64,000 bases of DNA from Treponemataceae bacterium. Its GTDB lineage: Bacteria; Spirochaetota; Spirochaetia; Treponematales; Rectinemataceae. Positions 18,001 through 24,000 of this stretch are shown in pieces. The position numbers were made by a program. The stretch is from NCBI GenBank assembly GCA_963678065.2, contig CAXXVZ010000003.1, forward strand, positions 608,001-672,000. Reading direction: 5' to 3'. Each line of letters starts with the position of its first letter. The stretch's first letter is position 1.

Positions 18001-21000
18001 CCGCCCGGGAAGGGCTCTTCGACGAGCGTCACATACAGGGATCGATAGGGGACATCATACTGGGCAGCGCCCCCGGGCGGCTGAACGAGACGGACATCAC
18101 CCTGTTCAGCGCCTTGGGACAGGCTGTCGAGGATGTAGCCTGCGCCAAGTATGTGTATCTGTGTCGGTAAAACGCGTTGAACGTCCAGCACATGCTCTAA
18201 ACTTGCGTCGGAGCCCTGCTCTCCGTCGATGTTTGTATTCCGATGATCACACCGCTAATCGGACCACCTGCGGATAAACGCAAGTATTTCCTTCGCCTGG
18301 TCCATCGAAGGCGACACGATATTGAAAAACAAGCCTCGGGCAGGCACGTTCTTCTTTATCAGCTCCAGATCGGCGATTGAATAGTCTCCCCACAATATGA
18401 GGTTTTTCTTTTCCGCGATCCGTTTGAGGAAGGGCAACATTTGCCCGACATCTGGACCTCCTGAGTCCTTGTTGACTTCGATCGCTCTGAGCCCTTCGTT
18501 CGCGAGGAGTTGGTCGAGGATGAAGAACGAAGCGGGATGGAGATGGACGGCAGTGTACTCGTGGTCCCGGCAGATCGATCGGGCCGGTTCGTCGAGGAAG
18601 CTCCCGTACATTTTCGGCGACATGATCGCCGACAGATCGTCCTGGAACCAGATCGACGAGCCGGGGCAGAAAACATGGTAGAATCCCAAACATGTTCCGC
18701 CGTGAAAAGGCGGAATCTGTTTTTTCTGTTCGCGGATTACCGTCAAAAATGCCTCTGCAACCTTCAGGAAAAAGGTTTTCATTCGCTCCGGTTCGTCGGC
18801 GAGAGCGAAGACCATCTCGGTCTGGCCAAGAATGGCGCCGACGATGTCCGATGGTCCCCGCATGATGGGCATGCCAACCGTGAACCGCCCCTTCCCCAGG
18901 TCGACGAGCCTTCGGGTAAACTCCAGGTACTTTTGAAGCCAAGGATTGTCCAGATCGATACGTATGCTTTCGATCCCATCTAGAGATCGGAGACAGGAGC
19001 GGGTGGAAAAACTTTCCCCGTTTGCGTAAACCTCGCACCCGAGGATGGCTTCCATCCAGGGAATTCCTGTAAAGGGTTCGGCTGTCCAGAACCCATCCTG
19101 CCCCAATGATTCGGTTTCGGCGAACATTCGCTCGTAGTCCGAAAGAAAGTCTTCGACCACGAGCATATCAGGGGTTATCCTCTTGTTTTGAACCAGAAAT
19201 GGTTTTGCGGCCTCGAAATGACGGCTGAAGAAATAATCGCCGATTCGAAACGAAGCCGGCGGATAGGGTAGGGGCAAACGGTTCCAGTATCGTCGATGAA
19301 GATCGAGTCGGGATTCGATGGTCATGGTTGGCGCTCCTTCCGAAACGGGAGAGCTCAGATTGAGAGCGTCCCGTCCGCTTGTTTCGGGAATTACAGCATG
19401 TTGTAAATCATGGGGGCGCAGGAGTAGGTCTCCGCGCTCCCCGCCCTGAATCATCCGTACAAGTGACGGCCTATGATGTGATCCTGGTACTCCGGCGCCA
19501 GCTCGCAGAAGTAGCCACTCCAGCCCCAGACGCGCACGATCAGATTGCGGTGGCGTTCCGGATGCCGGCGCGCATCCTTCAACGTTTCCACATTGAGAGT
19601 GTTCATCTGCAATTGCTGGCAGCCGGTCTGGGCAAAGCTGCGAATCAGCATGGCGACTTTATGGATGGATTCAGTGTCGCGGAAGACCGTGTCCGATAGC
19701 TCCAAAGTAATGGGACCGCCATTGCAGATCCGCCGGTAATTCAATTTCCCGAAGGTCTGCAGAATGCTGATGGGCCCTCTGACTTTGACACCGGGCGAAG
19801 GTGCCAGACTGGAGCTGAAAAACTCCCCTTTCCGGCGACCGTCCGCCGTGGCCTCCACGACCGGTTCCTGCATCGACTGAGCGCCGCGCGCCAGCCAGAC
19901 ATAATACATGGCCGAACCTGTGCCGGGACGGATCACGCGACCTCCGGATCGATCTGAGTGTTTCTCACACGCCTCGGCGAAATCATCGAATAATTGCGCC
20001 AGCAATCCATCTGCCCTGTCATCGTTGTTGCCGACTTTGGGTGCTTCTTGCTCCAGGTTGATTCGCATGTCCTCATGGTCATCGAAATTCGTACTCAATG
20101 CCTTCAGCAGCTCTTCGCCGCTGATTGTCCTTTTATCAAAGACGAAATGTCTGACAGCGCCCAGCGCGTCCGCCGCATTGGCCGAACAGGCGCCATGAAT
20201 GCCAAGGTTGTTGTAGGTGGCGCCCGTCGATAGATCGCGTCCGCGCTCCAGACAATCGCTCATCAAGACTGAATAATACGGGGCGGGCGGAAGTATTATT
20301 TTTCCGCAGCGCGACATGATCGCGTCGACTTGGTTCGAAATGTCCTCACGTGTGCGGCGAAGAATGCCGCTGAAATCATCGCCTGCGCTCAGGCCTTCGC
20401 GAATTCCTCTGTCCGCCGCAGCCGGGAAAGAAACAGCGCCAATATTGACGATATCCATGCCCCTGCCCGGAATGGAATACTCCCAACATGCAGCAACAGT
20501 ATAGTCGCGCGCATCTTCGAGCGTATAACCGTGGGCAACCAATCCGGGGATAACCACTTCGTCGTTTGAATACTGGGGAAATCCGAGCCCTTGGCGCGTC
20601 ATTTCAGAAGCCAGTTCCAACAGATCCAGGGGTGTATTGGGCGTGACACGAAGGTTGATCTTCGGATCGATCATGCTTACATCGCGGGCTACGCGAAGCG
20701 CCATGCGCGTGAGTTCATTCACCGCGTCGCTGCCATCGCGTTTCGTGCCGCCGAGCATCAGCGATTGACCATTATCGCCCTGCTGAATGCCAGGATAGAG
20801 ATCGCTGTCCTTATTAAGGCAGATAAAAAACTCCGCGAGAAGGTCCTCCGCTTCGACGGTGTCAAGCCGGCCGGATTTCAGATCCGGCTCAAGGTATGTC
20901 CACATGTATTGGTCGAACCGCCCGAGACCGACATGGTAGTTTCCGCTCAACCAGATCACGGCGCGCAAAATGACCAGAGACTGCAATGCTTCCTGAAAAC

Positions 21001-24000
21001 CGCGCGGCGGATTCGCGGGAACAATATCCAGAATTGCCGCGAGATCCTCTCGTCCGATTCGACGCGCCTCAACGGCGTAGCGGCCGGCCAGATCGAGAAC
21101 GGCATCAATGGTCTCGATGGCGCAGTCAAGGAATTCAACGGCCTCCGGTGTTGTGGCCATGCGCGCGCGCGTTGCTTCGGCCACACGCCTTCTCCCCGCA
21201 AGACCTTGGGAAAGGACCAATCCCCAGTCCGCGCAGACATTGCTTATGGGGCCTAATTCATGAGCATGTCCATCTTCGAACCGCGCCGCCCATTTCTCCG
21301 GCGAATCATAGGCAGGTACTGTCGGGAGTGTTCGCATAAAAACGATTTTCTCACCATCCCGGATTACAGGTTTTTCCGCTTCGCACTGCATCCGCGTCAA
21401 TAGCGACGTTCGTCGCATCCACGACAACTGCTGCTCTTCGCATTGCGCCAATACATCGGGCGAAGATTTCTGGCGAAGATACACATGCTCGCGGGCCCGT
21501 ACCCGTTCCCGCATTTCGTCTAGTCTCCGATTCATGGCCAGTTTCTCCTTCCACGGGCTAAAGCCCTGTCAGCAAACCCGTACCGGCACACCCAGGCGCT
21601 CGAAAGCCGCCGTGTCGGTATTCGTGGCGACCGACTCGTCAAACATGGGAGAAAATTTCATTCCACATGCAGCATATTTGCCGCCGGCAGCCCTGTTGTA
21701 GGGCAGGAGATCCGCACGCATGACACCACTGGTTCTACTGGCCAGAAGAGCTACGGCCTCCAGATTCTCCAGTGTATCGGTCACGCCGGGAACCAATGGT
21801 GTACGAAGGATGATCGGAACATGCATGGTCGATAGTATAGCCAGGTTCCGCAGAATGACTGCATTGTCCACTCCGGTGAATCGACGATGGAGTTCGGGAT
21901 CAATGATCTTGAGGTCGAAATGGACCATGGCGCAACGCCCGGTGACCTGCCGGAAATCTTCTTCGGGAGCATAGCCAGAGGTATCGAGCAGAACAGTCAA
22001 ATCGTCCAGACGATCGATAACTTCAAGCAAAAAGGCCGATTGCATCATTGGCTCGCCCCCGGAAAACGTGATCCCTCCCTCGCCGTTGCGGAGAATGAAA
22101 GCCTGTCGGTTCAGGATGGAGGCCAGTTCTTTAGCCGTGTAAAAGTCTCCGACAAGGCGTTTCCCTGCCACGGTGTGCAGCCGCTGAGGCAGTGAAGAAA
22201 GTCCTTCCGGGTTGTGGCACCAGTTGCAGCGTAGCGGGCAACCCTTCAAAAAAACCGTAGTGCGAATGCCTGGCCCGTCATGGACCGTAAATTCCCGGAT
22301 ATCAAAAACACATCCACGCACCATGAAACCGACCTTGGGTCAAAATATTTTCACACGGGCACCACTCCATGGTCATTCTACTGGTAGTAGAAAATCTACA
22401 CTAGGCTTCATTTTGTAGTTAGTCAAGTAATATCACGTAAAATAACTTGACAAAATGATAATACCGGTTAATGATAACGCAAGAAAAGCGCTTTTTCCAA
22501 TTCTCCTTGAGGATAGGAAGAGCCTGGACCATAGCTAATGTCGATTCGATCAGATTCGTCAGTGGAACAGTATCTCTACTGACTGCACGTCGTTCCAAAG
22601 GAAAAAAAGATGCGGATTTTTGCCTGCACCCTCGCCACAGAAAGTAACATGTTCTCCCCACTTCCAACCTCGTTACGTGCATACAAAGAGTGTGTATATC
22701 TCCGCCCGGGCGAACATCCCGACGACACAGCGCTCTTTTGCACAGCGCCTCTGTGGGTTGCTCGCCATAGGGCAAAGGCAGAAGGGTTTACGCTCATCGA
22801 GGGAAGCTGTTTCGCTGCCAATCCTTCAGGGTTAACAAACCGTGCCGATTATGAGGCGATGCGCGATGAGATCCTGGCTCAGGTCAAGGCCGCTATGCCA
22901 CTCGACGGTGTGTTGCTAGGCTTGCATGGCGCGATGGTCGCCTATGGCTACGATGATGTAGAGGGCGATATCGTCGAGCGCGTGCGGGCCATTGTTGGTC
23001 CCGATTGCGTGATTGGCATGGAGCTTGATCTGCACTGCCACCTCACTCTGAAACGTGTACGGCTCACGGATATAATCATCCTTTATAAGGAATTTCCGCA
23101 TGTCGATGTCGTGGACCGAGCTGATGAGTTGCTGACTCTCGTGCAGAAGACGATTCGCAAGCAGATCAAACCGGTGATGTCGGTGTACGACTGCCGGCAG
23201 ATTGGGAGCTATCCCACGACGCTGCCGCTGATGCGCGGTCTTGTCGATAAGATAAAGGCCCTGGAAGGCAAGAACGGTGTTTTGTCCATCTCGATCGCCC
23301 ATTGCTTCCCTTACGCCGACGTCTTTGAGATGGGCGGGCGGGTGTTGGTTGTCACAGATGATGACAAAGCGATGGCGGACCGCCTCGCGACTGAGATAGG
23401 AGAGGAATTCGTCGCGATGCGAGGTCGTAGTGCACCTCAGTACTACGATGTCGACGGCGGCATTTTAGCCGCCATCGCTGTCGATGGCTTTCCGGTTGTG
23501 ATCGCCGATACTGCCGATAACCCCGGTGGGGGAGCATCGTCGGATAATACTACTATCCTGCGTCGGCTGATCGCGCGAGACGTCCGTGGGGCGGCTTTGG
23601 GCCCGATTTGGGACCCCATCGCCGTGCGGCTTTGTTTTGACGCCGGACTTGGCGCAACTTTCCCCTTGCGCTTCGGTGGCAAGACAGGTCCTGCCTCGGA
23701 TACACCCGTTGATGCCGATGTAACGGTCACGGGCCTCGCTCGCGATTGTATGCAGAGTTTCGGTCCAACACAGGTGGCGCTTGGGGACTGCGCGGCGGTG
23801 AAAGTGGGCGGTGTCGAAACCGTTCTTATCAGCAACCGCACACAAGCGTTGGGTTTGGAGCTATTCCGCAATGTTGGCATCGAACCTGCGGACCGCAAGA
23901 TCCTGGTAGTGAAATCTACCAATCACTTCATGGGAGCATTCGGACCGATCGCCAAAGAAGTGCTCTACATAGACACTGACATTGATGGACCGATCCCTAT

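What a model noticed while it worked through the whole genome (the two positions that open the first line are those of the whole stretch)
18255..22324. Short glycyl radical enzyme with an AACWE Cys loop, linked to arabinose uptake
g01204 is a 694-aa GRE, about 100 aa shorter than studied ones, with Cys loop TVAACWE and Gly loop RVWGW, beside its activase and a family-less gene. I read it as a new sugar-acting GRE class that dehydrates or isomerises a pentose (arabinose or arabinitol). No GRE with a Trp in the CxE loop or a pentose substrate was found described.
Evidence so far: Below all NCBIfam GRE cuts (best 308 bits against 678; call 112); best PDB hits CutC and PflD, E 1e-72, 31% to PflD in Swiss-Prot. 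31 metagenome loci: (Y/F)TVAACWE in 27; 6 carry an alpha-L-arabinofuranosidase next door, 6 a monosaccharide binding protein, 2 a fucose/arabinose isomerase.
(Added by a program. Inside this text positions count along the whole contig: contig position 608,001 is position 1 of the stretch shown here. "Call 12" and the like, gene names such as g00115 and contig names such as C1 are that model's own, and its searches are not shown. The text may have been shortened before it was handed on; [...] marks where a part breaks off. The agent that wrote the report below was given it as the finding of a first reader that could run no searches.)

Follow-up and report, generated by a model that had tools for sequence, protein, structure and literature searches.

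The report
Uncharacterised sugar-acting glycyl radical enzyme
The window encodes an intact oxygen-sensitive radical enzyme and its activator from a large, untested family of anaerobic bacteria that likely breaks a carbon-oxygen bond in a sugar or sugar alcohol shaped like arabinose or galactose; one branch of the family sits in surface-sugar building gene clusters, so the family may also make sugars rather than only break them down.

Summary
In detail: a 694-aa glycyl radical enzyme (GRE; AACWE, RVWGWS), its activase, and a third gene that is URO-D/MtaA-like, not family-less. The GRE belongs to a large, cleanly separated clade with no characterised member in the 2026 review sections read. Its predicted pocket is invariant across phyla, and its fold is closest to PflD and glycerol dehydratase, so a C-O lyase is likely. 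The arabinose link is real but partial. Of 73 non-redundant locus groups, 13 have arabinose markers, 15 galactose-type markers and 24 either, against 2-5% background. Only 11 of 57 carrier genomes have AraA, and 0 of 29 gut-Clostridia loci show arabinose markers. Added here: a monophyletic subclade lies in galactofuranose-type glycan biosynthesis loci (GlfT2-like transferase, UDP-galactopyranose mutase); a LacI operator recurs upstream of the genes; a DeoC operon points to a 2-deoxy-sugar product; the window holds the cognate LacI, a GH127-like gene and araAB 16-30 kb away. Trp in CxE is not unique to this clade. The substrate remains unproven. The scan found this family before on other DNA (8 notes listed).

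The parts
19451..21535 (-). Glycyl radical enzyme, 694 aa; C350-W351-E352 Cys loop, G671 radical site
   Evidence: AlphaFold pLDDT 93.5, pTM 0.93; complete GRE barrel
21569..22324 (-). GRE activating enzyme (radical SAM), 251 aa, no ferredoxin insert; 33 nt upstream of the GRE start
   Evidence: TIGR02494 above cut-off; 75 of 106 full-length family activases also lack the insert
18255..19325 (-). URO-D/MtaA-like TIM-barrel protein, 356 aa from the likely start; optional partner, not a fixed part
   Evidence: only one weak homologue (L133, 21%) among the fetched loci; some URO-D-like gene near the GRE in 9 of 73 groups against 5-6% background
40236..41279 (-). LacI regulator, likely the cognate one: 79% identical to the LacI directly behind the GRE in the closest relative L068
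   Evidence: related LacI beside the GRE in 8 of 73 groups against 2% background
28886..32876 (+). Fucose-isomerase-like protein, FGGY kinase and class II aldolase; a like cassette follows the GRE in L134 (28%, 33%, 53%). Association inferred
32900..40207 (+). Sugar ABC transporter (CUT1), GH36-like and GH127-like glycosidases in the same lower-GC island. Association inferred

Best explanation
This is an intact glycyl radical enzyme with its activase, from a large uncharacterised family, that likely works as a carbon-oxygen lyase on a neutral, unphosphorylated five- or six-carbon sugar, sugar alcohol or simple derivative of L-arabino/D-galacto shape. Shown: the genes, motifs, clade, invariant residues and neighbourhoods. 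Predicted: the fold. Inferred from GRE chemistry: the activase installs the radical on G671; C350 abstracts H from a carbinol carbon; E352 deprotonates that hydroxyl; the neighbouring C-O bond (hydroxyl, ring oxygen or methoxy) breaks; H is returned, giving a deoxy-aldose or deoxy-ketose that a kinase plus aldolase (DeoC, class II aldolase) or AraB/AraD takes on. Large residues that close the glycerol dehydratase pocket are replaced by small ones (Y339 by G256, F450 by A367, Y640 by G540), which would make room for a longer polyol or a ring. My single most likely substrate is a pentitol or anhydro-pentitol of the L-arabinose series (about 0.2).
For: Clade: 25 full-length 50%-identity representatives score 723-1152 bits on the family profile (the 1152 is the query); the other 83 score 590 or less; FastTree support 0.997-0.998. 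One pocket: in 147 sequences of four subclades Q251, D254, G256, K292, N294, C350, N364, R536, G538 are invariant and N99, D245, Y247, W351, E352, H447, G540, Y545, T610, E612 nearly so. Fold: VIA Z 40.0 PflD, 39.6 glycerol dehydratase, 39.5 PflD with anhydromannitol-phosphate (tied), against 34.6 arylacetate decarboxylase, 33.1 HPAD, 29.1 PFL. CxE with a substrate-binding Glu marks eliminases and isomerases (PMC13450708, sections 5.6 and 5.7 passages). Context: arabinose markers in 13 of 73 groups, galactose-type in 15, either in 24, against 2.3-2.9%, 1.8-2.4% and 4.0-5.1% of windows in the own genome. They recur in separate tree branches with different genes: araA-araB-araD behind the GRE (L072-L104 group), GH127+GH51 (L003 group, L069, L073, L127), GH51/GH54/GH127 (L108 group, L091 group), GH51 (L132), GH127 (L169, L087, L090), galK-galT-galM in one run with the GRE (L164). 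DeoC (above cut-off), an FGGY kinase and a Zn dehydrogenase share the operon in L166/L167. A GlfT2-like transferase or UDP-galactopyranose mutase flanks one subclade.
Against: Only a third of groups show arabino/galacto markers. GH38-like (5 of 73), rhamnosidase (4 of 73) and xylA (1) also occur, and 25 of 73 have none of the markers tested. The marker queries were drawn from these same loci, which favours the loci over the background; galM and GH36/27 are not galactose-specific. Sugar transporters are only modestly enriched (30 of 73 against 24% in this transporter-rich genome). AraA over cut-off in 11 of 57 and GH51 in 31 of 69 carrier genomes. GD H164 is Asn and D447 is Asn here, and H201 (GD H281) is kept in only 130 of 147, so the catalytic acid is unidentified. 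The pocket mapping rests on a profile alignment, not on side-chain superposition; the roles of GD H281, S282, Y339, D447 and Y640 are recalled. A catabolic lyase does not explain the biosynthetic subclade. In L171/L172 an ADP-dependent kinase and class II aldolase suggest a phosphorylated hexose.
Confidence: 0.5

Rival explanations
1. The enzyme would be a dehydratase for a small or generic polyol that sugar fermentation yields or that glycosidases release (ethylene glycol, glycerol, erythritol, a cyclitol), so it lands in many kinds of sugar loci.
For: Glycerol dehydratase is the top profile hit (398.5 bits, tied with PflD). Contexts are mixed. In gut Clostridia the unit is only AraC + activase + GRE. 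Isomerase-kinase-aldolase cassettes that would give aldehydes lie in the window and in L134. The L169 binding protein's best PDB hits are 4YO7, 2IOY, 4RSM, 5HKO and 4RS3; that several of these bind polyols or inositol is recalled, not shown by the call.
Against: The pocket-closing residues of glycerol dehydratase are replaced by Gly/Ala. The genes are often in one run with a monosaccharide importer and glycosidases. No microcompartment genes were seen among the neighbours annotated.
Confidence: 0.17
2. The enzyme would make an L-arabino sugar by radical C5-C6 cleavage or decarboxylation of a D-galacto sugar (galactofuranose or galacturonate), feeding AraABD in degraders and furanose glycan synthesis in the biosynthetic subclade.
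For: araA-araB-araD lie directly downstream on the same strand. Galactose and arabinose markers are equally common. A subclade with support 1.0 and the same core pocket sits beside GlfT2-like genes (3 of 4 loci; between activase and GRE in L175), glf (L143) and rmlA (L145). D-Galf and L-Araf differ only by C6 (established chemistry). Uronate-related genes occur in some loci (window LarA-type hexonate epimerase above cut-off; GH28, GH88, KDPG aldolase).
Against: The fold is nearer to eliminases/isomerases than to decarboxylases or PFL. There is no PFL-type Cys-Cys. Most carriers lack AraA over the cut-off. Only four biosynthetic loci were seen; a search of 400 Clostridia found no further one. 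The review sections read describe no such GRE chemistry on sugars.
Confidence: 0.11
3. The enzyme would eliminate methanol from an O-methyl sugar or methyl glycoside, working beside corrinoid-dependent demethylases.
For: In the Anaerolineae-like operon (host inferred from gene content) three URO-D/MtaA-like genes and a corrinoid protein precede the activase. A URO-D-like gene flanks the GRE in the window and in L071, L146, L156, L158.
Against: URO-D is only about twofold enriched (9 of 73 against 5-6%) and the corrinoid protein occurs in 1 of 73 groups. The URO-D-like genes are not orthologous across loci. The paper checked on such methyltransferase clusters (PMC10418091) has no occurrence of glycyl radical, sugar or arabinose.
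Confidence: 0.1
4. It is a pyruvate formate-lyase, as databases name it, or an orthologue of a known GRE (PflD, YbiW, GD, PD, CutC, HypD).
For: Source names 'pyruvate formate-lyase'; the short activase resembles PflA in lacking the insert.
Against: Single Cys; TIGR01255 60.5 bits against 994; every equivalog far below its cut-off; 20-29% identity in structural alignments.
Confidence: 0.02

Closest known systems
PflD and YbiW (GRE isomerases; 1,5-anhydromannitol-6-P and 1,5-anhydroglucitol-6-P ring opening; PDB 8YJO, 8ID0, 8ID7)
   Same: 10-stranded GRE barrel (Z 40.0, 39.5, 37.4), single Cys in CxE, the only GREs called sugar-acting in the review passages read
   Different: 25-29% identity; 70-120 aa shorter; His of strand 1 is Asn; the cap-region Arg is Tyr247; no conserved basic residue seen at the aligned positions that could hold a phosphate (inferred); a PTS gene seen near only one locus among those annotated (L061)
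B12-independent glycerol dehydratase (1R8W/1R9D) and propanediol dehydratase (5I2G, 9RCO)
   Same: Top profile hit; Z 39.6 and 38.8-38.9; C433/E435 = C350/E352, H281 = H201
   Different: H164 to N99, S282 deleted, Y339 to G256, D447 to N364, F450 to A367, Y640 to G540; invariant D245/Y247/Q251/D254 cap loop; sugar-gene context
B. thetaiotaomicron BT2955/BT2956 (second 'PFL', PUL43)
   Same: Non-PFL GRE in a glycan locus with a RhaT-like transporter and AraC (PMC4321491 passages); deletion did not change formate on glucose (PMC8865466 passages)
   Different: Its sequence could not be obtained, so membership in this clade is untested; its locus is mannan-type

Membership tests
Glycyl radical enzymes, PFL-like | C-terminal RVxG[FWY] glycine loop | tested here: met
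   RVWGW, G671; PF01228
Glycyl radical enzymes, PFL-like | Catalytic Cys loop in a 10-stranded barrel | tested here: met
   C350 aligns to GD C433; model TM 0.83-0.87 to GD, PflD and CutC, Z up to 40
Glycyl radical enzymes, PFL-like | Dedicated radical SAM activase | tested here: met
   Adjacent gene above the TIGR02494 cut-off; an activase match in 129 of the 146 fetched loci searched, many of the rest being short contigs
Glycyl radical enzymes, PFL-like | Glycyl radical formed and used in catalysis | not testable with these tools
   Needs anaerobic activation and EPR
Pyruvate formate-lyase | Cys-Cys motif and TIGR01255 cut-off | tested here: not met
   AACWE, single Cys; 60.5 against 994.2 bits
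GRE 1,2-eliminases and isomerases (works-like class) | CxE with conserved Glu | tested here: met
   E352 in 146 of 147
GRE 1,2-eliminases and isomerases (works-like class) | Closest fold among GRE classes | tested here: met
   Z 37-40 for PflD, GD, PD, CutC, HypD, YbiW against 33-35 for decarboxylases and 29 for PFL; BSS reaches 36.0, so the margin is modest
GRE 1,2-eliminases and isomerases (works-like class) | C-O, C-N or C-S cleavage of a defined substrate | not testable with these tools
   No assay
Named equivalogs (PflD PRK09983, HypD, CutC, HpsG, HpfG, IAD, HPAD) | Score above the curated cut-off | tested here: not met
   157-272 bits against 1000-1150
Glycerol/propanediol dehydratase | Substrate residues H164, H281, S282, D447 and pocket-closing Y339/Y640 (H164 from the review, the rest recalled) | tested here: not met
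   Only H281 kept
URO-D/MtaA-CmuA-like TIM barrels (gene 18255-19325) | Profile or feature similarity to the family | tested here: inconclusive
   No Pfam/NCBIfam/PDB sequence hit; Atlas 0.97 to clusters with URO-D in 18-27% of members; hhalign 95.5%

The most novel reading that the evidence does not exclude
The first glycyl radical enzyme of sugar biosynthesis: one radical active site interconverts D-galacto and L-arabino sugars (C5-C6 cleavage, decarboxylation or C5/C6 dehydration of a galactofuranose), used by degraders to feed the arabinose pathway and by common gut bacteria to build furanose-containing surface glycans next to GlfT2 and UDP-galactopyranose mutase.
Probability: 0.12. Interest if true: 0.85.

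Novelty: new variant of a known kind. Interest (0 to 1): 0.57.

Why it matters
GRE chemistry is found one clade at a time, and the 2026 review (sections read) names only two sugar-acting members, both on phosphorylated anhydro-hexitols. This clade is large: 25 clusters at 50% identity, 26 of 400 Clostridia genomes searched, members in Planctomycetota, Lentisphaeria, Bacteroidota and others, and named hosts Acetatifactor muris, Biomaibacter acetigenes and Anaerotruncus massiliensis. It has one invariant pocket, so a single assay would annotate a great many genes now called pyruvate formate-lyase and would add an anaerobic route for a plant or microbial sugar. The subclade in glycan biosynthesis loci (90% clusters of 570 and 156 members) could show radical chemistry in surface-sugar synthesis.

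Tried and rejected
Trp in CxE as a unique hallmark: rejected (22 of 83 other representatives). N-terminal truncation opening the active site: not supported, the deletions are internal. URO-D-like gene as a fixed third part: rejected. A general tie to AraA: rejected. Operator-based regulon reading: the palindrome ACATTA(A/T)CG(T/A)TAATGT is real (20 hits in 2.3 Mb of loci against 2 in shuffles; found untrained upstream of the GRE or activase in L016, L018, L021, L159, L168), but it was not found in the window at score 6 or more, and the other genome sites were either inside genes or beside related LacI genes with unrelated operons, so it did not name the sugar. Binding-protein ligands from PDB hits: mixed or absent; YtfQ-type match only 92.5 bits against 510. 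BT2955 or B. fragilis membership: not testable; no Bacteroides-named protein among the best 120 hits of either search, and no family member among the plasmid records listed (best 28.9-30.8%). Viral contigs: no relative. More biosynthetic-subclade loci: none beyond G696 in 61 relatives and 400 Clostridia. Promoter/terminator scan: not above shuffles. Literature: searches for glycyl radical enzyme with arabinose, uncharacterized/sugar/dehydratase (11), YbiW/PflD/anhydro (50), pentose/PUL (77), inositol (100) and galactofuranos- (101) listed no paper on this clade by title or abstract; the library lacks most subscription journals, where many GRE papers appear. No complex prediction was run.
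Full report
Observation. The GRE has YTVAACWE and RVWGWSG, matches PFL-like and Gly_radical, falls below every NCBIfam GRE cut-off (best 307.8 against 678.2) and hits CutC and PflD at about 1e-72. The activase passes TIGR02494 and lacks the ferredoxin insert, as do 75 of 106 full-length family activases. The third gene likely starts at 19325 and is URO-D/MtaA-like, though Pfam, NCBIfam and the PDB sequence search give nothing.

The family. The best 120 database hits are 64-100% identical, 683-736 aa, all with AACWE or a one-letter variant upstream of it. An unbiased HMMER search of 50%-identity representatives, rescored with a profile of 148 members, gives 25 full-length sequences at 723-1152 bits (the top one is the query) and 83 others at 590 or less. 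The tree separates the clade by a long branch with support 0.997. Carriers: 5 of 301 genomes of the own phylum, 4 of 61 relatives, 13 of 401 in the family of G374 (Lachnospiraceae by record title), 2 of 251 in the phylum of G354, 26 of 400 in the class of G696. Named hosts include Kiritimatiellaeota, Verrucomicrobia, Sedimentisphaerales, Chloroflexi, Bacteroidales, Acetatifactor muris, Biomaibacter acetigenes and Anaerotruncus massiliensis. The peptide patterns included the Cys-loop or Gly-loop motif, so motif counts in those loci are partly selected; the representatives are not. CWE also occurs in 22 of the 83 outside representatives.

Structure and pocket. The AlphaFold model (pLDDT 93.5, pTM 0.93) is a complete GRE barrel. 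The closest chains are PflD (Z 40.0), glycerol dehydratase (39.6) and PflD with substrate (39.5), then PD, CutC, HypD and YbiW (37-39), BSS 36.0, decarboxylases 33-35 and PFL 29. By profile alignment to glycerol dehydratase: H164 = N99, H281 = H201, S282 deleted, Y339 = G256, C433/E435 = C350/E352, D447 = N364, F450 = A367, Y640 = G540. Across 147 sequences in four subclades these and D245, Y247, Q251, D254, K292, N294, H447, R536, Y545, T610, E612 are invariant or nearly so; H201 is kept in 130. I read this as one substrate class, a roomier and strongly polar pocket, and no clear phosphate site. R536 pairs in pattern with E612 (K/D in the sister clade) and may be structural; K292 is the only other invariant basic candidate near the barrel.

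Neighbourhoods. I pooled 164 loci: 61 from species genomes, the best 80 of 513 metagenome hits, 22 fetched stretches and the window. They form 99 groups at 75% identity; 73 have a locus of 10 kb or more, and the 26 shorter groups were left out of the counts. Arabinose markers (araA/B/D, GH51, GH127, GH54) occur in 13 of 73, galactose-type markers (galK, galM, GH36/27, GH4, glf, GlfT2) in 15, either in 24, URO-D in 9, GH38-like in 5, rhamnosidases in 4, and none of the markers tested in 25. Equal-sized windows of the own genome give 2.3-2.9%, 1.8-2.4%, 4.0-5.1% and 4.9-6.1% for the first four. The queries came from the loci, so the enrichment is biased upward, and the background is one genome. 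The arabinose link arises in several branches with different genes: importer, three URO-D-like genes, corrinoid protein, activase, GRE, araA, M24, Zn dehydrogenase, araB, araD in the L072-L104 group (host Anaerolineae-like by inference); GH127, monosaccharide ABC, activase, GRE, GH51 in Sedimentisphaerales/Pirellulales-labelled genomes; GH51/GH54/GH127 with RhaT-type or sugar-porter transporters in the L091 and L108 groups; GH51 in L132; GH127 in L169; and a GH51 about 10 kb from the GRE in G456, outside the counted stretch. Against it: none of 29 gut-Clostridia loci has these markers, and their constant unit is AraC, activase, GRE; AraA passes its cut-off in 11 of 57 carrier genomes (two more have fragments) and GH51 in 31 of 69, most being incomplete assemblies. 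Other operons hold galK-galT-galM (L164), Zn dehydrogenase, FGGY kinase and DeoC (L166/L167), or an ADP-dependent kinase and class II aldolase (L171/L172). DeoC fits a 2-deoxy-aldose product.

The window itself. The GRE genes start an island of lower GC (0.45-0.56 from 18 to 42 kb, against about 0.60) that also holds a LarA-type hexonate epimerase, XylR, an isomerase-kinase-aldolase cassette like the one behind the GRE in L134, a sugar ABC system, GH36-like and GH127-like genes and a LacI. That LacI is 79% identical to the one directly behind the GRE in the closest relative, L068, and is its best match in the genome, so it is likely the cognate regulator. araA and araB follow at 48.9-52.1 kb; they have host-like GC and unrelated genes in between, so their nearness may be chance.

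A biosynthetic branch. L143, L145, L147, L175 and representatives P0125 and P0131 form a clade with support 1.0, with H201 changed to Gln in most and the core pocket unchanged. A GlfT2-like furanosyltransferase lies beside the pair in 3 of the 4 loci, between activase and GRE in L175; UDP-galactopyranose mutase (above cut-off) follows the GRE in L143, and rmlA follows it in L145, whose upstream side is cut by the contig end. The 90% clusters of L147 and L145 have 570 and 156 members. D-galactofuranose and L-arabinofuranose share a ring configuration, which is why I widen the substrate to arabino/galacto and keep a sugar-making role open. Four loci are thin evidence. A word search of the scan's notes for this link returned nothing.

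An operator. A palindrome ACATTA(A/T)CG(T/A)TAATGT, found upstream of the genes in five loci, recurs untrained in five more. It is shared by a wider LacI subfamily and did not reveal the sugar.

What is known. Of PMC13450708 (2026 review) I read the abstract, search passages and sections 4.3, 5.6 and 7: it lists six C-O eliminases, one C-N, three C-S and three isomerases, of which YbiW and PflD act on anhydro-hexitol phosphates, and none matches this clade. The primary YbiW/PflD paper was not read. Of PMC8865466 and PMC4321491 I saw passages only: BT2955 is a non-essential second 'PFL' in a glycan locus with RhaT and AraC; I could not test whether it belongs here. PMC10418091 was searched by term, with no hits. 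No supplements were read. The claim that the clade is uncharacterised rests on these and on the searches, in a library that lacks most subscription papers. The scan has reported this family before on other DNA; those notes agree but are not independent support.

Verdict. A real, widespread, apparently isofunctional and unassigned GRE clade. Acting on a sugar or polyol: about 0.8. C-O lyase on an arabino/galacto-configured neutral substrate: about 0.5. Arabinose or arabinitol specifically: about 0.2. It works like PflD or glycerol dehydratase but is a member of neither. New variant of a known kind; a good enzyme-discovery target whose most surprising facet is the biosynthetic subclade.

Noticed in passing
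window 41348-46149: A membrane protein (42124-43836) whose C-terminal tail is a Cys/His repeat (CHSA, several copies), followed by a SPASM radical SAM enzyme (43752-45248); looks like a radical-SAM-modified tail system.
   Followed up: no
window 25945-27375: LarA-family protein above the NCBIfam cut-off for a nickel-dependent putative hexonate epimerase, beside a D-serine-dehydratase-like PLP enzyme, RidA and an MlrC-like peptidase.
   Followed up: partly
window 87-2227: A reductive-dehalogenase/epoxyqueuosine-reductase-like Fe-S protein and a U32-like protein in front of a sugar ABC system (read from sequence); proteins of a similar look follow the GRE in L088/L089 (not compared).
   Followed up: no
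L088:7518-9923, L068:19-1485, L134:1933-4461, L136:2795-5353, L160:2-616: An unnamed 800-850 aa GH38/GH57-fold protein family travels with the GRE in several lineages, between activase and GRE in L088/L089.
   Followed up: partly
P0162, P0165-P0169, P0177, P0182: A sister clade of 690-740 aa GREs with CWE/CYE and RVWGF, 495-568 bits on the family profile, apparently also uncharacterised.
   Followed up: partly
G000 C5:1106645, C5:1096650, C3:2215488, C3:742442: Four further GREs in the same genome, with GCIE, GCIE, GCVE and GCLE Cys loops; none belongs to this clade.
   Followed up: partly
L016:3, L018:9921, L132:879 and 937, L146:9095, L165:11976, L168:11903, L169:3945: Conserved LacI-type operator ACATTA(A/T)CG(T/A)TAATGT, often in tandem 12 bases apart.
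   Followed up: yes
L021, L025, L027: A second, different GRE lies within 10 kb of the family GRE in these gut genomes.
   Followed up: no
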